Program-made: the position numbers and the translations under genes
Notes under the pieces: generated by a model
Database searches by the model: none
Told to the model about the DNA's origin: nothing
What the model saw: the letters and a program-made list of their open reading frames with translations, nothing else
NCBI GenBank assembly: GCA_963796285.1
Contig: CAWCKW010000012.1
Location: forward strand, 416,001 to 480,000
Source: Nitrospirota bacterium
GTDB lineage: Bacteria; Nitrospirota; UBA9217
Direction: 5' to 3'
DNA length: 64,000 nucleotides
Part shown: positions 1 through 11,224 of the stretch, in pieces
How positions within the stretch are numbered: the first letter of the stretch is position 1
How the letters are laid out: each line of letters begins with the position of its first letter

Positions 1-406
1 TATTCCCGCTCCGCTGTTTGCTCATGTACTTGAGCGCTGCCTTAGTGCACAGGAACGCGCCTTTCAGGTTGATGCTGAGGACCAGGTCCCAGTCCTCGTC
101 CTTCATCCGGAGGATGAGGCCGTCACGAGTGATGCCGGCGTTGTTCACGAGGATGTCGATCCGTCCGAGCTTCTCGACGACCTGATCGATCATGGCCGTG
201 ACTTCGGCTGACGCGGCAACGTTCGTCTTGATGGCAAGCGATTTACTGCCTTTTGCTTCGATGTCGGCAACGGTCTTCTGCGCGGCCTCGAGGTTCACAT
301 CGCAGATAGCGACATCAGCACCGTCGGCCGCAAGCGCGAGCGCGATATCCCTGCCGATGCCCTGTGCCGCTCCGGTGACGAGTGCTGTCTTTCCGCTCAA
401 ACTCAT
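1..406 (-). CDS. fabG: 3-oxoacyl-ACP reductase, 3' end runs off the window
   Basis: Manual translation from ATG at 406 gives MSLSGKTALVTGAAQGIGR (SDR TGxxxGIG), and later ILVNNAGITRD; GAGGAG RBS; follows fabD. Confidence 0.93.
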   Translation of the reverse strand, partial: MSLSGKTALVTGAAQGIGRDIALALAADGADVAICDVNLEAAQKTVADIEAKGSKSLAIKTNVAASAEVTAMIDQVVEKLGRIDILVNNAGITRDGLILRMKDEDWDLVLSINLKGAFLCTKAALKYMSKQRSGN

Positions 407-485: not shown

Positions 486-1418
486 TTAGAATCCCAGCAC
501 ATTGAGCGTATCGCTCATGCTCCTTTGATCTTCGACGTTCAGCACTTTTGCGTCTTTTGCGATCCGCTTTACAAGGCCGGAAAGTACCTTGCCGGGTCCG
601 ATCTCGATAAAAGTATCATAGCCGTCACTGACCATATTTTTGATCGAGTCTTCCCAAAAGAGCGGGGAACTGATCTGTTTGATAAGCGACGTCCTGAGCT
701 CTGCAGCAGTCCGAATGAACTTCGCTTCCGCGTTATTCACGATAGGGTAGTTCAAATCGCTGATCGTTACCTTGATGAGTTCCTGCTCAAGCCGCTCGCC
801 CGCCTGCTTCATCATGATACAGTGTGAAGGCACGCTCACCAATAGCGGGATCACTTTTTTCGCGCCGGCGGCCCGGGCAAGCTCCATGGCTTTTTCCACG
901 GCCTTTTTCTCGCCGGCGATGACGATCTGGCCCGGGGAGTTGTAATTTGCAGGGGCAACTATACCATTTTTGGCGGCTTCATGGCAAGTTTTTTCTACGT
1001 CTTGCCGTTCCATCCCGAGAATGGCCGCCATAAGCCCTTCACCGGCAGGAACGGCCTCCTGCATGTACCTGCCGCGCTTTTGGACCAGCGCCACGGCATC
1101 CCTGAGTTCGAAGCCGCCGGCAGCGGTAATCGCGGTATATTCGCCAAGACTGTGGCCCGCAGCTGCGGTTGCAACAAGGCCTCTTCGTTCCAGCGGCCGG
1201 AGTATTGCGATGCTCGCTGCAAGGATCGCGGGCTGGGTGTTCTCGGTGAGGTTCAGCTTCTCGACCGGTCCGTGCATGCAGAGTTGAAGGAGGTCATAAC
1301 CGAGCACTGAGCTTGCAGTCTCAAAGACTTCTTTGGATTCGTCAAAATTTTCACTGAACTCCTTCGCCATACCAACGTACTGCGAACCCTGGCCGGGAAA
1401 GATGAATGCTATTTTCAT
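486..1418 (-). CDS. fabD: malonyl-CoA:ACP transacylase
   Basis: FPGQGSQ, GHSLGEY and EIGPGKVL motifs. Confidence 0.97.
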   Translation of the reverse strand: MKIAFIFPGQGSQYVGMAKEFSENFDESKEVFETASSVLGYDLLQLCMHGPVEKLNLTENTQPAILAASIAILRPLERRGLVATAAAGHSLGEYTAITAAGGFELRDAVALVQKRGRYMQEAVPAGEGLMAAILGMERQDVEKTCHEAAKNGIVAPANYNSPGQIVIAGEKKAVEKAMELARAAGAKKVIPLLVSVPSHCIMMKQAGERLEQELIKVTISDLNYPIVNNAEAKFIRTAAELRTSLIKQISSPLFWEDSIKNMVSDGYDTFIEIGPGKVLSGLVKRIAKDAKVLNVEDQRSMSDTLNVLGF

Positions 1419-1419
1419 T

Positions 1420-2610
1420 TTATCCCCGCATGTCCCTGATCTTCCTGATCATGATCGGAAGAACCTCGTGCACATCGCCGACAATACCATAGGTCGCAAC
1501 GCTGAAGATGGGCGCATCGGGGTCCTTATTGATCGCGACAATGACGTCCGATGACTGCATTCCGGCAATATGCTGGATTGCGCCGGAGATACCGCAGGCG
1601 ATGTAGAGCTTGGGGCAGACCGTCTTGCCCGTCTGGCCCACCTGGTGGGAGTAGGGGATCCAACCTTCATCAACGGCTCCCCTTGTTGCGGCAACCGCGC
1701 CTCCCAGCGCTTTTGCGAGTTCCTCAACCAATTGAAAGTTTTTGGCGCTGCCCAGGCCGCGGCCGCCCGCGACAATGATGTCCGCTTCACAGATGTTGAC
1801 GGTCTCTCCCAGTTCCTCCACGGTCTTGATGACCTTGGTGCGGAGATCTCCAGACGGATCATACTTCACGTCAATGATTTCACCGGTCCGTGCGTCATTG
1901 CGCGGCGCCGGTTTCATCACCTTGTGCCTAACCGTGGCCATCTGAGGCCGGTGGTTGGGGGTGACGATCGTGGCCATGATATTTCCGCCAAAGGCCGGAC
2001 GGGTCTGGTGGAGGTGGCCGGTCTCAGCGTCGATATCGAGCACGGTACAGTCTGCGGTAAGGCCGGTGTAGAGCGACGACGCGACCTTGGGAAAGAAGGA
2101 GCGGCCGATCGCCGTTGCACCCGCAAGGATGATCTCTGGCCTGTGCTGTCTCGCGAGCGCTGTCAGGACTCCGGCGTAAGAGTCGTCATTGAAATCTTTG
2201 AGCGACGGATCGTCCGCGACATAAACGATATCTGCGCCGCAGGCAATGAGCTCTTGAGCTTTATTGTGAATTCCGTGGCCGATGAAAACAGCGGCGAGTT
2301 TGGTCTTCCTCTTATCGGCCAGTTTCCTTCCTTCTCCAAGGAGTTCAAGGGCGACGCTGGATATGCCTCCTTTGTGCTGTTCGGCAAAGACCCACACACC
2401 CTTGTAGGCCGAAAGGTCGACAGCCGGGGAAGACGCCTCAACCGTTTTCTCGATAGCCTTGAATTCGCATGCCTCGACGCAGGCGCCGCACATGGTGCAG
2501 GCTTCGGTAATGAACGCCTTGCCGTCGCGCATCTCTATAGCACCGAAAGGGCATACTGATAAGCAGGTTTCGCATGCGGTGCATGTATCCGTTATGACTT
2601 TTACACTCAA
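1420..2610 (-). CDS. etfA: electron transfer flavoprotein alpha subunit with an N-terminal 2x[4Fe-4S] ferredoxin domain
   Basis: CTACETCLSVCP and CTMCGACVEAC motifs; TRPAFGG, QVGQTG and GISGAIQH ETF-alpha motifs; stop lies 1 nt before the fabD ATG. Confidence 0.95.
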   Translation of the reverse strand: MSVKVITDTCTACETCLSVCPFGAIEMRDGKAFITEACTMCGACVEACEFKAIEKTVEASSPAVDLSAYKGVWVFAEQHKGGISSVALELLGEGRKLADKRKTKLAAVFIGHGIHNKAQELIACGADIVYVADDPSLKDFNDDSYAGVLTALARQHRPEIILAGATAIGRSFFPKVASSLYTGLTADCTVLDIDAETGHLHQTRPAFGGNIMATIVTPNHRPQMATVRHKVMKPAPRNDARTGEIIDVKYDPSGDLRTKVIKTVEELGETVNICEADIIVAGGRGLGSAKNFQLVEELAKALGGAVAATRGAVDEGWIPYSHQVGQTGKTVCPKLYIACGISGAIQHIAGMQSSDVIVAINKDPDAPIFSVATYGIVGDVHEVLPIMIRKIRDMRG

Positions 2611-2695
2611 GGGAAGCTCCTTGTAATCAAGGGTCTGGAACCAACAGACGGCAGCGTTGGCCTGACACCTGAATTCCGACTCCCGTCTCCGGTGG

Positions 2696-3481
2696 TTAAA
2701 TAAACGACTGCTCTTTCAGTTTCTTTACTACCGTCGCGGCTTGTTCTTCGAGTGTGCCGGAAAGGATCTCCCGCTGTCCGCGTGGTGCAGGCGGGAATAT
2801 CTTTACCACCTTGGTTGGTGAACCCTTCAAGCCGCACAGATTCTGGTCCGCGTTTATGTCCGCGGCGGTCCAGGAAGTGACCTTGAGGCCCCTGGCTTTC
2901 ATTTTGCCTTTGAGCGAAGGCAGGCGCGGCTGATTGATCTCTTTCACAACGGTGATAAGGGCGGGGAGAGAGGTTTCGACAACATCGTACCCCTCGTCCA
3001 TCATGCGCTCGGCCACCATCTTCGAGTTTGTTATCTGTTCAATTTTTCTGATATAGGCTACGAAGGGAATGCCGAGCATATCAGCGGTTTCGGGGCCGAC
3101 CTGGGCCGTGTCGCCGTCGATAGCCTGTTTCCCGGCGATGATGAGATCGTAAGCGCCGATCTTTTTTATCCCCTGCGAGAGGGCATAGGATGTCGCCCAG
3201 GTATCGGCTCCGGCAAAGGCCCGGTCAGACAGGAGCACGCTGTCGTCCACGCCCAGGGCAACGGCCTCTTTGAGTGAGTCTGCCGCCTGGGGCGGTCCCA
3301 TGGTCACGGCGGTCACCTTGCCGCCGTGCTGTTCGCGCAAACGGAGAGCCTCTTCGATCGCATACATGTCGTAAGGGTTGATGATGCTCGGTACGCCGTC
3401 GCGAATAAGCGTGTTGGTCTCCCGGTTGATCTTGACCTCCGACGTGTCCGGCACCTGTTTTATCAGAACAATGATATTCAT
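2696..3481 (-). CDS. etfB: electron transfer flavoprotein beta subunit
   Basis: IKQVPDT, DRAFAGADTWAT and GKQAIDGDTAQVGP motifs. Confidence 0.95.
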   Translation of the reverse strand: MNIIVLIKQVPDTSEVKINRETNTLIRDGVPSIINPYDMYAIEEALRLREQHGGKVTAVTMGPPQAADSLKEAVALGVDDSVLLSDRAFAGADTWATSYALSQGIKKIGAYDLIIAGKQAIDGDTAQVGPETADMLGIPFVAYIRKIEQITNSKMVAERMMDEGYDVVETSLPALITVVKEINQPRLPSLKGKMKARGLKVTSWTAADINADQNLCGLKGSPTKVVKIFPPAPRGQREILSGTLEEQAATVVKKLKEQSFI

Positions 3482-3580
3482 GGTTCCAATCCTCTTGTCA
3501 AAAAGACATCAAGACACAATAGTGTTCTCTGTGCCTTAATGCCTCAGTGGTTTATGTGATCTCTGTGCTCGGTGCTCTGC

Positions 3581-4738
3581 TTACTTCTGTCTCGTTGCTT
3601 CCCTGATCATATCGAGGGCGATAACGTTTCGCTGGATCTGGTTCGTACCCTCGTAGATCTGGAGGATCTTGGCATCGCGCATCATCTTCTCGACGGGATA
3701 TTCCTTCATGTAGCCGGATCCGCCCATGACCTGTACCGCATCGGTCGTGACCTTCATGGCCGTATCGGTGGCGAAGAGCTTCGCCATGGCGGACGCCCGT
3801 GAGAAGTCTTTTGCCCCGCTGTCCATCATGCGGGCCGCGGAATAGACAAGGGCGCGGGCAGCCTCGGTCTGGGTCTGCATGTCCGCGAGCATATGCTGAA
3901 TGGCCTGAAAGGAGGTGATGGGCTGGCCGAACTGGACCCTGCCCTTGGCGAACTTGATGCACTCGTCGATTGCCCCCTGCGAAACGCCTACACCCTGGGC
4001 GCCCACGCCCGCGCGCGAGCAGTCGAGGGTCTTCATGGCCACGATGAAGCCCAGGCCTTCCCGGGCGATGAGGTTTTCTTTGGGGATGCGGCAGTTGTTG
4101 AAGATGAGCTCGGTGGTGGATGAAGCGCGGATGCCCATCTTGTTCTCTTTTTTACCGAAGGTGAATCCTGGAGTGCCCCTCTCCACGATGAAGGCCGAAG
4201 CGCCGCGGGCGCCCTTGGACTTGTCCGTGATGGCAATGACGGTGTATATCTGGGCCTCGCCGCCGTTCGTGATCCACTGTTTAGTGCCGTTCAGCACATA
4301 TTCGTTGCCTTCGAGTTTTGCAGTGGTTTGGATGCCGCTGGCATCGCTGCCCGCATTCGCCTCGGTAAGGCCGAATGCCGCGAGGTTCTTTCCCGATGCG
4401 ATGTCGGGCAGGTATTTCTTCTTCTGCGCCTCGCTGCCATGGAGGAGGATGGGGTAGCTGCCAAGTGCATTGGCTGCATAACTCGTGGATACGCCAACGC
4501 ATGCCTTGGAGATCTCTTCGATGGCGATGTAGAGCTCAAAGCTCTTTTTGCCAAGGCCGCCGTATTCCTCGGGGATGTAGATTCCGAAGAGGTCGGCCTG
4601 TGCCATGGCCTTCATGATATCAGTGGGGAACTTGTTATGCTCATCGAGCTCGGCGCGAACGGGCACGATCTTCTCCACCGCGATCTGCCGTGCAAGGTCT
4701 CGTATCATGATCTGGTCTTCTGTCAGCAAGTAATCCAT
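3581..4738 (-). CDS. acyl-CoA dehydrogenase family flavoprotein (Bcd/CarC-like)
   Basis: FGLTEANAGSDA, KQWITNG, GRVQFGQ and IYEGTNQIQR (catalytic Glu); GGAGG RBS before ATG at 4738. Confidence 0.93.
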   Translation of the reverse strand: MDYLLTEDQIMIRDLARQIAVEKIVPVRAELDEHNKFPTDIMKAMAQADLFGIYIPEEYGGLGKKSFELYIAIEEISKACVGVSTSYAANALGSYPILLHGSEAQKKKYLPDIASGKNLAAFGLTEANAGSDASGIQTTAKLEGNEYVLNGTKQWITNGGEAQIYTVIAITDKSKGARGASAFIVERGTPGFTFGKKENKMGIRASSTTELIFNNCRIPKENLIAREGLGFIVAMKTLDCSRAGVGAQGVGVSQGAIDECIKFAKGRVQFGQPITSFQAIQHMLADMQTQTEAARALVYSAARMMDSGAKDFSRASAMAKLFATDTAMKVTTDAVQVMGGSGYMKEYPVEKMMRDAKILQIYEGTNQIQRNVIALDMIREATRQK

Positions 4739-4758
4739 TGAATCCTCCAAAACTATTA

Positions 4759-4860
4759 ATTGGAAATTTAAGATTGAAAATTGGAAATTTTAAATTGCAA
4801 CCCGGAAGGAGCAAAGCATGAGAACGAACACTTTCCAATCTCCAATTTGCAATTTCCAAT
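4759..4860. repeat. imperfect inverted repeat built from 7-bp units (ATTGGAA-like / TTCCAAT-like)
   Basis: attggaa atttaag attgaaa attggaa attttaa attgcaa ... ttccaat ctccaat ttgcaat ttccaat. Confidence 0.75.
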
Positions 4861-4866
4861 GAGTTT

Positions 4867-5847
4867 TTACCACCGTACCAGCGCTGATGCCCAGGTAAGG
4901 CCTCCTCCAAATGCTTCGAACAGGAGGAGATGGTTTTCCTTGATTCTGCCATCGCGGACTGCTTCGTCAAGCGCCATGGGGATCGAGGCTGCCGAGGTAT
5001 TGCCATATTTAGGAAGGGTGACCACGACCTTTTCCATCGGCATCTTCAGGCGCTGTGCCATTGCCTGGATGATCCGCAGGTTCGCCTGGTGCGGAATAAG
5101 AAAATCGATCTCTTCCGGTTTGACCTTGTTGTATGCCAGGGTCTCCTGCACAACGCCTTCGAGCGCCAGCACCGCTGCCTTGAAGGTCTCATTCCCCTTC
5201 ATCTTGATAAAGTGCATGCGTTTATGTATGGTCTCGTGCGACGCAGGATGCAGTGCCCCGCCTGCCGGAAGATAGAGGAGATCCCCGAGGGAACCGTCTG
5301 AGTGAAGATGGGTGGAGAGGACCCCGTGTTTGCCGGCCTGCCGCTGGATAACGACCGCGCCCGCCCCATCTCCGAAGAGAATGCACGTGGTCCGGTCCTC
5401 CCAGTCCGTGAAGCGGGAAAGGACCTCAGCACCCACCAGAAGGATACTCTTATACATCCCTGATTTTATGAAAGCATCGGCCACGGAAAGGCCGTAAAGG
5501 AATCCGGAACAGGCTGCATAGATGTCGAAAGCAGCTGCTTTTTTTGCACCGAGCTTTTGCTGGAGCACACAGCCGAGATTCGGCATCAACATGTCCGGTG
5601 TGGTAGTTGCTATCAGGATAAGGTCCAGTTCATTCGCGCCAAGACCCGCCGCTTTCAGTGCCTTTCGGCTTGCCTCGTAAGCGAGATCCGAAGTCGTCTG
5701 CCCCTTTTCCACGATCCTGCGTTCCTTGATGCCGGTGCGCTCCGTGATCCAGTCGTCACTCGTGTCCACCAGCTTCTCGAGGTCGTGATTGGTGATGATC
5801 TTACCCGGTACGTACGACCCGGTCCCTGTTATACGCGCATGAATCAT
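4867..5847 (-). CDS. fabH: 3-oxoacyl-ACP synthase III
   Basis: AACSGF, PHQANLRI and YGNTSAAS catalytic motifs. Confidence 0.97.
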   Translation of the reverse strand: MIHARITGTGSYVPGKIITNHDLEKLVDTSDDWITERTGIKERRIVEKGQTTSDLAYEASRKALKAAGLGANELDLILIATTTPDMLMPNLGCVLQQKLGAKKAAAFDIYAACSGFLYGLSVADAFIKSGMYKSILLVGAEVLSRFTDWEDRTTCILFGDGAGAVVIQRQAGKHGVLSTHLHSDGSLGDLLYLPAGGALHPASHETIHKRMHFIKMKGNETFKAAVLALEGVVQETLAYNKVKPEEIDFLIPHQANLRIIQAMAQRLKMPMEKVVVTLPKYGNTSAASIPMALDEAVRDGRIKENHLLLFEAFGGGLTWASALVRW

Positions 5848-6857
5848 TTGGCTCTGGTCAGCTCCATATTCTTTTCAATATCCGCGCGAAGGTGCTTGTT
5901 GACCTCGCTCTTCGCGAGTTCAGCGGCCACGCGTATGGCGTTTTTAATGGCCCGGTCGGATGAACGGCCATGGCTGATGATGCTGATGCCATTGATGCCG
6001 ACGAGCGGCGCACCGCCGTATTCAGCGTAATCGACACGTCGTTTGAACGATTGGAACGCCGGGCGCATCAAGAGATATCCGAGTTTGCGCATCAGGCTGT
6101 TGCCGATACCTTCGCGAATAAAGAGGCCGATGGCCTCGGCAACGGATTCGGAAACCTTGAGGACGACGTTTCCGACAAAACCGTCGCATACGATCACATC
6201 CGCGTTGCCGGACATGACATCGCGTCCCTCGACATTGCCGATAAAATTGAGTGAGGTCTCGGTCAGGAGCTTGAATGCCTCCTTGGTCAGTTCGTTCCCT
6301 TTCGTCTCTTCTTCGCCGATGGACAGGAGCCCCACACGGGGACTGGGAACCTTTAACAGATACTTTGCGTAGACCTCTCCCATAACAGCGAACTGAAGGA
6401 GGTGATTGGGCTTGCAGTCCACATTCGCGCCCATATCGAGGATGATGGAGGTCCCGGTGATCGTGGGCATGAACGTGGCAATGGCCGGGCGCTCGATCCC
6501 TTCGAGCTTGCCCAGTACAAAGAGGGACGTGGCCATGGCAGCGCCGGTATGTCCCGCGCTGATCACGGCCACCGCTTCGCCGCTCTTCACAAGCTCATTG
6601 GCCACGCGGATGGAAGAATCTTTTTTTCTCCGGAAGACCGTGGCCGGAGAATCGAGCATGTCCACCACCTCGGTGGCGTTCCGGACCTCGAGCGGCAGTG
6701 ATTGCGCATGGGTGTGCTTCTTAAGTTCCGCCTGGATGATCTGTTCAACGCCCACCAGGATGATGCCGACCCCGTACTCCTTCGCTGCCTGTACAGCTCC
6801 GGCGACGACGGCATGGGGTGCATTGTCCCCCCCCATAGCATCAACAGCGATCTTCAT
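5844..6857 (-). CDS. plsX: phosphate acyltransferase
   Basis: MKIAVDAMGGDNAP, DMGANVD, CDGFVGN and SHGRS motifs; 4-bp overlap with fabH. Confidence 0.96.
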   Translation of the reverse strand: MKIAVDAMGGDNAPHAVVAGAVQAAKEYGVGIILVGVEQIIQAELKKHTHAQSLPLEVRNATEVVDMLDSPATVFRRKKDSSIRVANELVKSGEAVAVISAGHTGAAMATSLFVLGKLEGIERPAIATFMPTITGTSIILDMGANVDCKPNHLLQFAVMGEVYAKYLLKVPSPRVGLLSIGEEETKGNELTKEAFKLLTETSLNFIGNVEGRDVMSGNADVIVCDGFVGNVVLKVSESVAEAIGLFIREGIGNSLMRKLGYLLMRPAFQSFKRRVDYAEYGGAPLVGINGISIISHGRSSDRAIKNAIRVAAELAKSEVNKHLRADIEKNMELTRAK

Positions 6858-6937
6858 ACAAGCTCCCCGCAATATAAAAGGCAAAGAGTCATACCGGAAA
6901 ATACAGTATCATCCCTTTGCCTTCGAGCAAGCGCCGG

Positions 6938-7120
6938 TTATATCTGCTGAACAGTTGCGATCTCGCGGCCGTTGTAGGTGCCGCAGGACAAACAGGCGTG
7001 ATGGGGCTGCTTCACTTCCTGGCATTGCGGACAGGCTGAGAGATTGGGTGCCTTGAGGTGCTTGTGGGTGCGTCTCTTGTCCCTGCGAGATTTGGATGTT
7101 TTGTGTTTTGGGTTCGCCAT
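6938..7120 (-). CDS. rpmF: 50S ribosomal protein L32
   Basis: MANPKHKTSKSRRDKRR plus two CxxC zinc motifs; position upstream of plsX. Confidence 0.96.
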   Translation of the reverse strand: MANPKHKTSKSRRDKRRTHKHLKAPNLSACPQCQEVKQPHHACLSCGTYNGREIATVQQI

Positions 7121-7140: not shown

Positions 7141-7656
7141 TTATTTTTTCAACAAATCCTTTAATGCGGAAAATGCTCCGAATTCACCTGCACTGTCCTT
7201 CTTGCAACCACAGTCCGTTTCATTCAGGTCCGTTCCGCAGACGGGACAGAGGCCCTTGCAGTTGGGAAGATGGAGCGGAACCATGGGGATGGAAATCAGC
7301 AACTGCTCTTTTACCAGATCGAGGGGCTCTATCTCCTCGCCCTGGTAGAACTCCACGTCAAGCTCTGACCGATCAAGTTCATGCTCCGGGGAAGTCCCCA
7401 GAGCTTTCTCCGGTGCAAGGGTTATATCCAGTTCCGTATCGATGTGATACGAAAAAACTTTCAAGCAACGGCTGCACTCGAACTCCGGGTCAGCCTGAAC
7501 ACGGCCTTTTACGTGGAGGCCGCCCGCACCCGTCGGCTTGATGCCAAGAACGGCCGCAACGGCGGTGGATGCTTTCCCGGTGTCGAACAGGTCGAGCTTC
7601 TGGTTCAGTTCCAGTGCAAGCCCCTCTGGCGGTATATCGCTGATCTTCATGCCCAT
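7141..7656 (-). CDS. DUF177/YceD family protein
   Basis: CSRC and CKGLCPVCG motifs; canonical position upstream of rpmF. Confidence 0.9.
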   Translation of the reverse strand: MGMKISDIPPEGLALELNQKLDLFDTGKASTAVAAVLGIKPTGAGGLHVKGRVQADPEFECSRCLKVFSYHIDTELDITLAPEKALGTSPEHELDRSELDVEFYQGEEIEPLDLVKEQLLISIPMVPLHLPNCKGLCPVCGTDLNETDCGCKKDSAGEFGAFSALKDLLKK

Positions 7657-7694: not shown

Positions 7695-7723
7695 ATTATA
7701 AGGGGAAGCTCCGGTTTTGTCAA
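7695..7723 (-). promoter_or_regulatory. sigma70 promoter of the DUF177-rpmF-plsX-fab operon
   Basis: Minus strand reads TTGACA-N17-TATAAT, a perfect consensus. Confidence 0.8.
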
Positions 7724-7819: not shown

Positions 7820-7999
7820 CTCGCCGAACAGGGGTTTATGTCAATGAGAACACTGTGGATCAGGATTCGCCATGCGGCTACGGCGTCCTGAGCCTGCCCG
7901 AAGGATAATTTCCGCGAACCGCCCGGTGCATTTGCGCGCCAGAAGGAAGTCCCCTTGGGGGGGCCCCGCACGCCGGGTGGTGTGGGGGCTGGGGGAGAA
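7820..7999 (+). mobile_element. 3' remnant of a group IIC(-attC) intron: RT C-terminus, domain V and the start of domain VI
   Basis: 7820-7891 translates LAEQGFMSMRTLWIRIRHAATAS*; followed by GAACCGCCCGGTGC...CCGCACGCCGGGTGGTGTGGGGGCTGGGGGAGAA (class C domain V with CCG triad, loop expanded). Confidence 0.7.
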
Positions 8000-8302
8000 C
8001 ACACGCTTGACGCGCCACCTTTTTATCTCTTTTGCAGTTGATGAGTGGGTTACATGATATAAATCCCAAGCCAGCTGCAAATTAAGCCAAAACTGCGCCT
8101 CCATGCCAAATAGTTTCTCCAGACGAAGTGCTGTGTCAGGGGTGATTCCCCGCTTCGCATGAATCAGTTCATTAACGCGAGGATATGAAACTCCGAGCTT
8201 TTCCGCCAACTCGCTCTGTGTTATTTTCAGAGGCTTGAGAAACTCCTCCAACAGCATTTCGCCGGGATGCGTCGGCGGACCATATTTAGGTATACGTACC
8301 AT
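7841..8302 (-). CDS. higA: HigA family antitoxin; native 3' end lost near 8025, so it reads through into the attC/intron remnant
   Basis: PTHPGEMLLEEFLKPL...ITPDTALRLEKLFGMEAQFWLNLQ. Confidence 0.88.
   Translation of the reverse strand: MVRIPKYGPPTHPGEMLLEEFLKPLKITQSELAEKLGVSYPRVNELIHAKRGITPDTALRLEKLFGMEAQFWLNLQLAWDLYHVTHSSTAKEIKRWRVKRVFSPSPHTTRRAGPPQGDFLLARKCTGRFAEIILRAGSGRRSRMANPDPQCSH
7998..8024 (-). repeat. right half of an attC-like site
   Basis: Minus strand AAAAGGTGGCGCGTCAAGCGTGTGTT is close to AAAAGGCGGCGCGTCAGCCGCGCGTT in the attC at 9530-9589. Confidence 0.55.
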
Positions 8303-8320
8303 CTTCTTCTCCTTCACTCG

Positions 8321-9976: not shown

Positions 9977-11224
9977 TCACTCCTTACGGACGTTCGGTCC
10001 GCCGCCATTCACTCTGCTGAGCAGGACCAGGCCAATGACAAAAAAAAGCGCAATGGAGAGGATCGCGGGCCGCTGGCTTCCGAAGGTTGACGATACGAAG
10101 CCGAAGACAAGAGGACCGAGGATTGCCGAAGATTTACCCACAAGAGAGTAAACACCGAAATATTCCGCTTCACTGCCCATTGGCACGAATTGGGTGTAAA
10201 AGGCGCGCGTACCGGCCTGCACCGTCCCGAGCCCCAATCCGGCTGTGCATGCCACGGCCCAGAACTGTGGTTTGGTCTGCACAAAATAAGCGATCACGGC
10301 GACGAGGGTCCAGAGGACCAGGGAGAGCATGACGATCTTTTTGGGCCCCCAGGTGTCGGTGGGTTTTGCCAGGACAAAGGCGCCGATGAGTGCGGTGAAT
10401 TGTACGGTGATATAGAGCCCGACGAGCTCACCCATTCCGAAATGCAGTGTCGTTGCCGCAAATATGCTTGAAAAGACGATGACCGTGTTGACGCCGTCTT
10501 CATATAACAGGTAGGCGATCAGAAATTTTCTCGGTTCTCTGCGTTTCCAGAGCGCCTTGATGGTTGTCCAGGCCTGCTCAACGCCCCGGGTCCCGGCTTG
10601 CAGTGCGGTGATATCAGCCCGCGTGTCTCGCGGCAAAAAAAGGAACGCGGGAAGGGAAAAGAGTGCGAAGAAGACCGCCGTGGCGATCCACGTCAGTCCG
10701 TACTGCCCGGATTTAACAAGCGGCAACGCGATCAGGAGAGAGGCGATGGAGCCTGCATATCCGACGCTGAAGCCCCAGCCCGACACCCTGCCGTGATACT
10801 CCGCCGGGGCTATTCGTGGAAGGAAGGAATTGTAGAAGACCAGGCCGCCTTCCATGCCGATGTTTGCGAACACGATCAGGATGAATCCGGCGATCACCGC
10901 GCCCGGCGTGAGGAGCGTCAACCCGGTCAGGGCAACGACGCATATCGCGGTATAGAATGCAAGAAGCCGTTTCTGCAGACCCGCGTAGTCGGCGATGCCG
11001 CCGAGGAACGGAGAGGAAAGGGCTATGAAGAGCATGCTCAAGGAGATGGCCCGACCCCACCAGAGATCGCCCTCACCGGAGCTGTTCCCGACGATCACGC
11101 CGGCGTAATAGACCGGGAATATGACCGCGGCGATAACAGCCGAGTAGCTTGAGTTCGCAAAATCGAAGAGACACCAGCTGAGTATCTGTTTTTTGTCCAC
11201 TGTCCTCGCTAAGGGAGCATGCAT
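9977..11224 (-). CDS. MFS transporter (UMF1/ATG22-like)
   Basis: SWCLFDFANSSYS, FYNSFLP and VSGWGFSVGY motifs; about 12 hydrophobic segments. Confidence 0.85.
   Translation of the reverse strand: MHAPLARTVDKKQILSWCLFDFANSSYSAVIAAVIFPVYYAGVIVGNSSGEGDLWWGRAISLSMLFIALSSPFLGGIADYAGLQKRLLAFYTAICVVALTGLTLLTPGAVIAGFILIVFANIGMEGGLVFYNSFLPRIAPAEYHGRVSGWGFSVGYAGSIASLLIALPLVKSGQYGLTWIATAVFFALFSLPAFLFLPRDTRADITALQAGTRGVEQAWTTIKALWKRREPRKFLIAYLLYEDGVNTVIVFSSIFAATTLHFGMGELVGLYITVQFTALIGAFVLAKPTDTWGPKKIVMLSLVLWTLVAVIAYFVQTKPQFWAVACTAGLGLGTVQAGTRAFYTQFVPMGSEAEYFGVYSLVGKSSAILGPLVFGFVSSTFGSQRPAILSIALFFVIGLVLLSRVNGGGPNVRKE

What the first reader, a model, noticed from the sequence alone, without database searches (positions are those of the whole stretch)
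486..5847. Bcd/EtfAB-type module in the fabK slot of the fatty-acid operon: a candidate electron-bifurcating enoyl-ACP reductase
Seen: an acyl-CoA dehydrogenase, etfB and a 2x[4Fe-4S]-fused etfA lie co-oriented between fabH and fabD, downstream of one perfect sigma70 promoter (7695-7723). The etfA stop is 1 nt from the fabD start, and no fabI/fabK/fabV/fabL is present in the window. Known: in many anaerobes the order is plsX-fabH-fabK-fabD-fabG, and clostridial Bcd-EtfAB and Acetobacterium CarCDE reduce enoyl-CoA thioesters with NADH while bifurcating electrons to ferredoxin. Inference: this module may perform the enoyl-ACP reduction step of FAS II, coupling lipid synthesis to ferredoxin reduction. 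Alternatively it supplies saturated short or branched acyl-CoA primers to FabH.
Basis: partly seen in the sequence, partly recalled or inferred. Interest (0 to 1): 0.88.

Follow-up and report, generated by a model that had tools for sequence, protein, structure and literature searches.

The report
Flavoprotein module replacing enoyl-ACP reductase
An acyl-CoA-dehydrogenase/electron-transfer-flavoprotein trio sits inside the fatty-acid synthesis operon of this anaerobic Nitrospirota bacterium, which has none of the usual enzymes for the last reduction step, so the trio most likely does that step and may gain reduced ferredoxin from it.

Summary
On the minus strand, one operon runs promoter-yceD-rpmF-plsX-fabH-acd-etfB-(2x[4Fe-4S])etfA-fabD-fabG, then acpP-fabF just outside the window.

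The 96%-complete genome has FabH, FabD, FabG, ACP, FabF and FabZ. It has no FabI, FabL or FabV, and only a remote nitronate-monooxygenase (NMO) paralogue of FabK. A separate beta-oxidation cluster carries its own dehydrogenase and Etf.

- **Synteny:** 41 of 80 related loci, from many phyla, link the acd to fab genes. In 5 of 5 closed Nitrospirota genomes the only Fd-fused etfA lies directly upstream of fabD, even where acd has moved away.
- **Nitrospirota (151 genomes):** 68 carry the acd orthologue, and none of these has a strict FabI, FabK, FabL or FabV hit. Of the other 83, 70 have FabI or FabK.
- **Desulfobacterota:** the same trend, less clean. Strict FabI or FabK occurs in 1 of 68 acd-positive and 26 of 83 acd-negative genomes, and some acd-positive genomes hold FabL- or FabK-like proteins.

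The proteins resemble the bifurcating Bcd-EtfAB and CarCDE complexes most closely.

Best reading (about 0.55): a flavin-based, probably bifurcating, enoyl-ACP reductase. ACP specificity and bifurcation are untested. I found no paper or database name stating this role.

The parts
7695..7723 (-). sigma-70 consensus promoter (TTGACA, 17 nt, TATAAT) upstream of yceD
   Evidence: 12 of 12 matches; sequence read
7141..7656 (-). yceD (DUF177), first gene of the operon
   Evidence: PF02620, 91.2 bits
6938..7120 (-). probable rpmF (ribosomal protein L32), 60 aa
   Evidence: ORF and sequence. Named from position and recall; not run through a family search.
5844..6884 (-). plsX phosphate acyltransferase
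   Evidence: TIGR00182, 393 bits (cut-off 243)
4867..5847 (-). fabH beta-ketoacyl-ACP synthase III
   Evidence: NF006829, 460 bits (cut-off 249)
3581..4738 (-). acd: acyl-CoA-dehydrogenase-fold flavoprotein (385 aa from the ATG at 4738; the ORF is open to a TTG at 4750). Candidate enoyl-thioester reductase subunit.
   Evidence: Three ACAD domains. Best solved relative is C. difficile Bcd, 5OL2_C (424 bits). The YEGT glutamate is invariant in 36 of 36 clade members.
2696..3481 (-). etfB, Etf small subunit of the bifurcating type
   Evidence: CarD scores 266 bits. Bifurcating Etfs score 220-266 bits and canonical Etfs 57-95 bits.
1420..2610 (-). etfA, Etf large subunit with an N-terminal 2x[4Fe-4S] ferredoxin domain (about nt 2431-2610), CarE architecture
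   Evidence: CarE 6FAH_A aligns over 1-391 at 413 bits. Of the 47 EtfA hits, the 46 whose match reaches the N-terminus have 8-9 Cys in the first 60 residues.
486..1418 (-). fabD malonyl-CoA:ACP transacylase; its start lies 1 nt after the etfA stop
1..406 (-). fabG 5' part; the gene continues outside the window, followed by acpP, fabF and rnc
   Evidence: L097

Best explanation
acd, etfB and the ferredoxin-fused etfA encode a Bcd/CarC-EtfAB-type flavoprotein complex. In this organism, and in a large clade of anaerobes, it takes the place of FabI/FabK/FabL/FabV as the enoyl reductase of type II fatty-acid synthesis.

Proposed mechanism (inferred from the solved relatives, not shown here):
1. NADH reduces the bifurcating FAD on EtfB.
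2. One electron goes through the EtfA FAD to the FAD of the dehydrogenase subunit, which reduces trans-2-enoyl-ACP to acyl-ACP.
3. The other, low-potential electron leaves through the two [4Fe-4S] clusters of EtfA to ferredoxin.

Each elongation cycle would then yield reduced ferredoxin.

Shown here: gene content, operon position, conservation of the linkage, the phyletic pattern, and the similarity to bifurcating complexes. Inferred: ACP-thioester specificity, NADH as donor, and bifurcation.
For: **1. The pathway is complete except for the reductase.**
- Present: FabH, FabD, FabG, ACP, FabF and FabZ.
- An E. coli FabI query finds only FabG, at 47 bits.
- All intact SDRs are FabG-like or pteridine-reductase-like.
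- The FabL model finds only FabG, at 176 bits against a cut-off of 328.
- FabV gives no hit.
- The one NMO protein scores 100.6 bits against the FabK cut-off of 453.

**2. That NMO paralogue is a poor candidate.**
- It also occurs in genomes with true FabK (G042, G087) or FabI (family f5).
- It gives no FabK-model match (E <= 1e-20) in 9 of 9 f16 genomes, all of which have the acd.

**3. Beta-oxidation has its own set.** It includes a 595-aa ACD, a non-Fd EtfBA and a membrane Fe-S oxidoreductase, all on contig C1.

**4. The linkage is conserved.**
- 41 of 80 loci link acd to fab genes.
- The only Fd-etfA lies directly upstream of fabD in 5 of 5 closed genomes, although acd is 4-380 kb away in three of them.

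**5. Phyletic pattern.**
- Nitrospirota: 0 of 68 acd-positive genomes have strict FabI/K/L/V, against 70 of 83 acd-negative genomes with FabI or FabK.
- The 41 synteny-positive genomes: 0 over the FabK cut-off and 0 with a strong FabI hit (best 112.7 bits).
- Desulfobacterota: strict FabI or FabK in 1 of 68 acd-positive and 26 of 83 acd-negative genomes.

**6. The acd tree.** All fab-linked rows and the lone-acd Thermodesulfovibrionales fall in one 71-row clade (SH-aLRT 92). The 10 Bacillota rows lie outside it, and 6 of those genomes have true FabI.

**7. The best solved relatives are all bifurcating complexes**.
Against: - No direct evidence that the dehydrogenase accepts ACP thioesters.
- It is about 57% identical (my estimate from the alignment) to C. 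difficile butyryl-CoA dehydrogenase. It is 68-71% identical to Bacillota proteins that are not fab-linked and that co-occur with FabI in 6 of 10 genomes.
- Only two positions (R21, R32) separate the clade from those Bacillota proteins.
- Some acd-positive genomes do hold other candidates:
  - G037 has a FabL-model-positive SDR (332 bits, cut-off 328) and a FabI-like gene.
  - 13 of 68 acd-positive Desulfobacterota have FabI/FabL-like hits of 92-121 bits.
  - 21 of 68 have FabK-like hits at E <= 1e-60 (roughly 220 bits or more), one of them at 379 bits.
  - f18 Nitrospirota have a 203-205-bit FabL-like SDR.
- 13 of 83 acd-negative Nitrospirota genomes lack FabI, FabK and the acd, so unknown reductases or incomplete assemblies exist.
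- The Nitrospirota split may reflect very few evolutionary events.
- The FabV searches had no positive control.
- The genome is 96% complete.
Confidence: 0.55

Rival explanations
1. The module is an ordinary enoyl-CoA reductase (Bcd- or Car-like) acting on CoA esters. It might make saturated short or branched primers for FabH, or serve redox balance. It is merely co-transcribed with fab genes, and an unrecognised enzyme is the true enoyl-ACP reductase.
For: - High identity to CoA-dependent Bcd, and to Bacillota homologues that coexist with FabI.
- NCBIfam's best hits are the acryloyl-CoA reductase subunits.
- 13 of 83 acd-negative Nitrospirota genomes lack all known reductases too, so unknown ones may exist.
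- fabH is the immediate upstream neighbour in this window.
Against: - No thiolase, hydroxyacyl-CoA dehydrogenase or crotonase lies next to it. The only such genes are in the separate beta-oxidation cluster, which has its own ACD and Etf.
- fabH is absent between plsX and acd in 5 loci.
- The Etf genes stay glued to fabD when acd moves.
- This rival does not explain the complementarity with FabI/FabK.
- Small closed genomes (1.8-1.9 Mb, f16) show one high-scoring ACD match and one Etf of this type, and I found no FabI, FabK, FabL or FabV in them.
Confidence: 0.2
2. The remote NMO-family protein (contig C12:1992057-1993112, 367 aa) or another unrecognised protein is a divergent FabK-type reductase. 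The Acd/Etf would then only feed or drain electrons.
For: The protein belongs to the same Pfam family as FabK (PF03060, 155 bits). It is present in all 27 of 27 f1 relatives.
Against: - It scores 100.6 bits against a cut-off of 453 and covers only model positions 10-234.
- Its neighbours are unrelated to lipid synthesis.
- The same paralogue co-occurs with true FabK (G042, G087) and with FabI (f5).
- It gives no FabK-model match (E <= 1e-20) in 9 of 9 f16 genomes that have the acd.
Confidence: 0.07
3. The complex runs in the oxidative direction as an acyl-ACP dehydrogenase, making trans-2-enoyl-ACP for unsaturated fatty-acid synthesis. This would be a FabX-like role, with Etf as electron acceptor.
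For: - ACAD enzymes are dehydrogenases by default.
- H. pylori FabX is a flavoenzyme with a [4Fe-4S] cluster that dehydrogenates acyl-ACP within type II synthesis (abstract of PMC8626469, seen in the listing).
Against: - It leaves the missing reductase unexplained.
- No isomerase partner was seen.
- The Etf is of the NADH-oxidising bifurcating type rather than the canonical electron-accepting type.
- The complementarity is with reductases.
Confidence: 0.06

Closest known systems
Butyryl-CoA dehydrogenase-EtfAB (Bcd-EtfAB) of Clostridioides difficile / Acidaminococcus fermentans (PDB 5OL2, 4L1F, 4KPU)
   Same: Same three-protein make-up. The dehydrogenase is the best solved match (424 and 404 bits). 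EtfA and EtfB score 284-318 and 220-240 bits. The catalytic YEGT glutamate is kept.
   Different: - It sits inside the plsX-fabH...fabD-fabG operon instead of a crt-hbd-thl butyrate cluster.
- EtfA carries an extra 2x[4Fe-4S] domain.
- The host lacks any known enoyl-ACP reductase.
- The proposed substrate is an ACP thioester, not a CoA thioester (inferred).
Caffeyl-CoA reductase CarCDE of Acetobacterium woodii (PDB 6FAH)
   Same: EtfA has the same length and the same N-terminal eight-cysteine ferredoxin domain as CarE (413 bits over residues 1-391). EtfB is closest to CarD (266 bits). The CarCDE cofactor content and the suggested adaptor role of the Fd domain come from passages of PMC5861303.
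   Different: The dehydrogenase is closer to Bcd (424 bits) than to CarC (318 bits). The genomic context is lipid synthesis, not caffeate respiration.
Acryloyl-CoA reductase AcrABC (Clostridium propionicum models in NCBIfam)
   Same: Best NCBIfam models for the dehydrogenase and EtfA, and second-best for EtfB.
   Different: All three score below the curated cut-offs: 476.9 against 640, 359 against 600, and 241 against 475. It is therefore not a member. There is no lactate/acrylate pathway context.
Known enoyl-ACP reductases FabI, FabL, FabV (SDR superfamily) and FabK (FMN TIM barrel)
   Same: Operon position among the fab genes, and a phyletic pattern complementary to FabI/FabK.
   Different: An unrelated fold (ACAD plus Etf), three subunits, three FAD and two Fe-S clusters predicted, and possible ferredoxin coupling.
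ACAD-fold dehydrogenases acting on carrier-protein thioesters (MbtN, RedW/PigA)
   Same: They show that the ACAD fold can take carrier-protein-bound substrates (recalled knowledge). Weak NCBIfam matches appear.
   Different: Scores are far below the cut-offs: RedW 264 against 650, PigA 247 against 500, MbtN 80 against 700. Those enzymes oxidise rather than reduce, and none of the names links them to a bifurcating Etf.

Membership tests
Bifurcating acyl-CoA dehydrogenase/EtfAB complexes (Bcd-EtfAB, CarCDE) | Dehydrogenase subunit with the three ACAD domains and the catalytic glutamate | tested here: met
   PF02771, PF02770, PF00441; E363-G364-T365 invariant in 36 of 36
Bifurcating acyl-CoA dehydrogenase/EtfAB complexes (Bcd-EtfAB, CarCDE) | Etf subunits of the bifurcating (two-FAD, NADH-oxidising) group rather than the canonical AMP-containing group | tested here: met
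   By score gap only. EtfA: 284-413 bits to bifurcating Etfs, 139-154 bits to full-length canonical Etfs. EtfB: 220-266 against 57-95 bits. Individual FAD/NADH-binding residues were not checked.
Bifurcating acyl-CoA dehydrogenase/EtfAB complexes (Bcd-EtfAB, CarCDE) | CarE-type N-terminal 2x[4Fe-4S] domain | tested here: met
Bifurcating acyl-CoA dehydrogenase/EtfAB complexes (Bcd-EtfAB, CarCDE) | NADH-dependent reduction of ferredoxin coupled to enoyl-thioester reduction | not testable with these tools
   Needs enzyme assays.
Enoyl-ACP reductase (functional class) | Homology to FabI/FabL/FabV (SDR) or FabK (NMO/TIM barrel) | tested here: not met
   ACAD and ETF folds only. It can be a functional analogue, not a family member.
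Enoyl-ACP reductase (functional class) | Encoded with, and phyletically complementary to, the rest of type II fatty-acid synthesis | tested here: met
   linkage; Nitrospirota: 0 of 68 against 70 of 83. Weaker in Desulfobacterota.
Enoyl-ACP reductase (functional class) | Reduces trans-2-enoyl-ACP | not testable with these tools
   The ACP docking job gave no verdict.
Acryloyl-CoA reductase AcrABC (NCBIfam equivalogs) | Score over the curated cut-off for each subunit | tested here: not met
   476.9 against 640; 359 against 600; 241.4 against 475
Carrier-protein-dependent ACAD dehydrogenases (RedW, PigA, MbtN) | Score over the curated cut-off | tested here: not met
   264 against 650; 246.9 against 500; 80.3 against 700

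The most novel reading that the evidence does not exclude
A flavin-based electron-bifurcating enoyl-ACP reductase forms a further, structurally unrelated class of this enzyme. It would be the native and often the only one in Thermodesulfovibrionia, in much of Desulfobacterota, and in members of Omnitrophota, Rokubacteria, Margulis-/Saganbacteria and some Actinomycetota. In these anaerobes membrane-lipid synthesis would itself produce low-potential reduced ferredoxin, one to two per elongation cycle, turning an anabolic pathway into an energy-saving one.
Probability: 0.4. Interest if true: 0.9.

Novelty: new variant of a known kind. Interest (0 to 1): 0.8.

Why it matters
- **It would fill a real gap.** Metabolic reconstructions of several widespread anaerobic phyla have no known enoyl-ACP reductase.
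- **It would add a reductase class.** The new class has a different fold and different cofactors from FabI, FabK, FabL and FabV. By recalled knowledge, existing inhibitors such as triclosan target those known enzymes. Susceptibility of this module was not examined.
- **It would extend flavin-based electron bifurcation from catabolism to core biosynthesis.** This bears on the energy budget of organisms living near the thermodynamic limit.
- **It is directly testable** with standard anaerobic enzymology and complementation.

Tried and rejected
- **ACP docking.** The job used two acd chains (alignment A1, 36 rows) plus ACP (alignment A2, 27 rows). It returned 'no answer', score 0.02 against a mark of 0.32, and the controls were not run. 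This is not evidence either way.

- **Expression.** Two metatranscriptome runs (X1, X2) held only short contigs, mostly 90-95% alike, so from relatives. Pieces lie on fabD, etfA, etfB, acd and fabH. Among the pieces listed, only the fabH/plsX junction is bridged, and contigs cannot show transcription. This gives no support for or against co-transcription.

- **Signature residues.** I looked for a sequence signature of ACP use. Only two columns separate the 71-row clade from the 10 Bacillota rows: Arg21 and Arg32 against Ala. Mean net charge is -2.7 against -6.1. Without coordinates I could not place these on the surface.

- **FabV.** PF12241 found nothing in the own genome or in 151 Nitrospirota genomes. 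It also rang in none of the 14 control genomes, so these searches lack a positive control.

- **FabK cut-off.** The TIGR03151 cut-off (453 bits) is strict: only 1 of the 14 control genomes passes it. Matches in the range of roughly 140-380 bits could not be classed, especially in Desulfobacterota, where one genome can have up to 8 NMO paralogues.

- **Literature.** Nine full-text searches found no statement that an Acd/Etf complex serves as an enoyl-ACP reductase. Passage look-ups in PMC5861303, PMC6085437 and PMC13126070 found none either. Subscription journals and supplements were not visible.

- **Database names.** Those of the 120 closest homologues that carry a source name are called acyl-CoA or butyryl-CoA dehydrogenase.

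Full report
**What is there**

The first 7.7 kb of the window carry one co-oriented gene row on the minus strand:
- a perfect TTGACA-17-TATAAT promoter (7723..7695)
- yceD (7141-7656)
- a 60-aa ORF that reads like rpmF (6938-7120; named from recall)
- plsX (5844-6884)
- fabH (4867-5847)
- an acyl-CoA-dehydrogenase-fold gene, acd (3581-4738/4750)
- etfB (2696-3481)
- etfA with an N-terminal 2x[4Fe-4S] domain (1420-2610)
- fabD (486-1418)
- fabG (cut at the window start)

Outside the window the row goes on with acpP, fabF and rnc. The etfA stop and the fabD start are 1 nt apart. No terminator-like site lies on this strand inside the row.

**The rest of the genome**

The assembly has 13 contigs and is 96% complete.
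- FabZ is present.
- An E. coli FabI query finds nothing better than FabG, at 47 bits.
- The eight SDR matches resolve into FabG, two FabG-like proteins, a pteridine-reductase-like protein, one unassigned, one broken gene (two matches) and one larger protein.
- The FabL model finds only FabG, at 176 bits against a cut-off of 328.
- FabV was not found, though that search had no positive control.
- One NMO-family protein, far from any lipid gene, scores 100.6 bits on the FabK model, whose cut-off is 453.
- tblastn finds only three ACD-like genes and two Etf pairs.
- The second Etf pair lacks the Fd domain. It lies in a classical beta-oxidation cluster on contig C1, with a FadB-like protein, a thiolase, a 595-aa ACD and a membrane Fe-S (CCG/NarI-like) oxidoreductase.

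So fatty-acid degradation is provided for separately, and synthesis lacks only its enoyl reductase.

**Conservation of the linkage**

A scan of species genomes returned 80 loci with an acd 67-95% identical to this one.
- In 41 of the 80 loci, fab genes lie beside the acd. The usual order is plsX-fabH-acd-etfB-etfA-(fabD)-fabG.
- By their record titles, these come from Nitrospirota, Desulfobacterota, Actinomycetota, Rokubacteria, Omnitrophota, Margulis-/Saganbacteria and unclassified bacteria.
- All 46 EtfA hits whose match reaches the N-terminus (of 47) have 8-9 cysteines in the first 60 residues.
- Of the other 39 loci, 21 are Thermodesulfovibrionales/Nitrospirota loci without fab genes (20 with a lone acd, one with acd-etfB at a contig end), 10 are Bacillota with acd-etfBA in other contexts (Wood-Ljungdahl-type genes in L052; FTCD_C, an MFS transporter and a glycosidase in L065), and 8 are others, some on short contigs.

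In five closed Nitrospirota genomes there is exactly one Fd-etfA. It lies directly upstream of fabD in all five, although acd is about 4 kb, 6 kb and 380 kb away in three of them. The Etf, not only the dehydrogenase, is therefore tied to the fab genes.

**Phyletic pattern in Nitrospirota**

The sample was 151 genomes.
- 68 have an orthologue at 71% identity or more, one of them in two pieces. The next best ACDs are at most 47% identical, so the split is clean.
- None of the 68 has a strong FabI hit. All 64 strong FabI hits (183-284 bits) are in other families.
- None of the 68 has a FabK, FabL or FabV match over the cut-off.
- Weak exceptions among the 68:
  - G127 has a 122-bit FabI-like gene beside a FabF-like gene and an NMO gene, which looks like a secondary cluster.
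  - G164, whose acd is split, has a 258-bit FabK-like protein.
  - The three f18 genomes have an SDR scoring 203-205 bits on the FabL model.
- Of the 83 acd-negative genomes, 70 have FabI or a FabK over the cut-off. The other 13 (f17, part of f8, f21) have none of these.

The roughly 100-bit NMO paralogue also occurs in genomes with true FabK or FabI. It gives no FabK-model match (E <= 1e-20) in 9 of 9 f16 genomes that have the acd. This speaks against it as the missing reductase.

These families probably reflect few evolutionary events, so I give no statistic.

**Other phyla**

- In the 41 synteny-positive genomes, none passes the FabK cut-off. Six have 260-358 bits, and 13 have no match at all.
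- None of the 41 has a strong FabI hit. Five have 94-113 bits.
- Two closed chromosomes, G027 (Omnitrophota) and G033, have neither.
- In 151 Desulfobacterota genomes, 68 have one match at 60-100% identity to the Desulfobulbaceae acd.
  - Strong FabI: 22 genomes, only one of them acd-positive.
  - FabK over the cut-off: 5 genomes, none acd-positive.
  - Against the reading: 13 acd-positive genomes have FabI/FabL-like hits of 92-121 bits, and 21 have FabK-like hits at E <= 1e-60 (roughly 220 bits or more).
  - In G037 one of the weak hits is a FabL by NCBIfam (332 bits, cut-off 328).

The module is therefore not always the only candidate. Having two reductases is common in bacteria (recalled).

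**Tree**

A quick maximum-likelihood tree of 82 rows was rooted on the genome's own paralogue, which sits on a long branch. All 42 fab-linked rows and the 21 Thermodesulfovibrionales/Nitrospirota rows without fab neighbours fall in one clade of 71 rows (SH-aLRT 92). The 10 Bacillota rows lie outside it. Six of those ten genomes have true FabI at 42-46% identity, and none of the 71 does.

**What kind of machine**

- The dehydrogenase is closest to the Bcd of the bifurcating C. difficile complex (424 bits) and keeps the catalytic glutamate.
- EtfA aligns end to end with CarE, including the ferredoxin domain (413 bits). EtfB aligns best with CarD (266 bits).
- Canonical, non-bifurcating Etfs score 57-154 bits.
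- No NCBIfam equivalog cut-off is reached.

By analogy I infer NADH oxidation at the EtfB flavin, electron transfer to the dehydrogenase flavin for enoyl reduction, and exit of the low-potential electron through the clusters to ferredoxin. CarCDE's cofactors and the suggested adaptor role of its Fd domain are from passages of PMC5861303.

**What is not shown**

ACP specificity, the electron donor and bifurcation remain untested. The docking job gave no verdict and the RNA contigs were uninformative.

**Novelty**

Nine literature searches and three passage look-ups found no description of such a reductase. Public databases that name the closest homologues call them acyl-CoA or butyryl-CoA dehydrogenases.

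**Verdict**

This is a real, conserved and unusual feature. The most likely reading is a new functional variant of the Bcd/CarC-EtfAB kind serving as the enoyl-ACP reductase of type II fatty-acid synthesis (confidence about 0.55). The main rival is a CoA-specific enzyme alongside an unknown reductase (about 0.2).

Noticed in passing
window 7841-8317 (-): A HigA-family antitoxin-like HTH protein (TIGR02607, 107.8 bits) lies just upstream of the fab operon promoter. I did not look for a partner toxin.
   Followed up: no
G000 contig C1:104001-118000 (L098): A complete beta-oxidation cluster: a FadB-like fusion, a thiolase, a 595-aa ACD, a CCG/NarI-like membrane Fe-S oxidoreductase, and a canonical EtfBA without the Fd domain. 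It is separate from the fab-linked set.
   Followed up: partly
G000 contig C13:547033-549568 and C12:279144-279977: A second FabG-like plus FabZ-like pair, and another FabG-like SDR whose best NCBIfam match is the flexirubin reductase FlxB (289 bits, below the cut-off of 340). These may belong to secondary lipid or polyene clusters.
   Followed up: no
L097 9157-9896 (-), just downstream of fabF: RNase III appears as a 163-aa ORF with the catalytic domain. An 83-aa ORF follows and overlaps it by 4 nt. This may be a split or frameshifted rnc.
   Followed up: no
G000 contig C12:817064-817697: An SDR gene broken by an in-frame TAG (two matches).
   Followed up: no
G164 (Nitrospirota, family f1) C48:40703-41813 and C76:11979-12923: This is the only f1 genome whose acd is in two pieces. 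It also has the highest FabK-like score among the acd-positive genomes of the Nitrospirota sample (258 bits). This could be replacement in progress or an assembly error.
   Followed up: no
G037 (Desulfobulbaceae) L099:2991-3743 and L100:1344-4946: A FabL-model-positive SDR lies next to metK. A second FAS-like cluster (FabH-like, FabI-like, a 148-aa ORF, FabG) coexists with the fab-linked acd/etf.
   Followed up: partly
acd residues 21 and 32 (389-aa numbering; window about 4655-4690): Two arginines are conserved in 66 and 65 of the 71 clade members. Ala is the commonest residue there in the Bacillota outgroup (8 of 10 and 10 of 10 rows), and the two solved Bcd proteins have Val/Ala and Ala/Val. 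They may form a docking patch for ACP or Etf.
   Followed up: partly
window 9977-11224 (-): An Atg22-like MFS transporter (PF11700, 184 bits).
   Followed up: no
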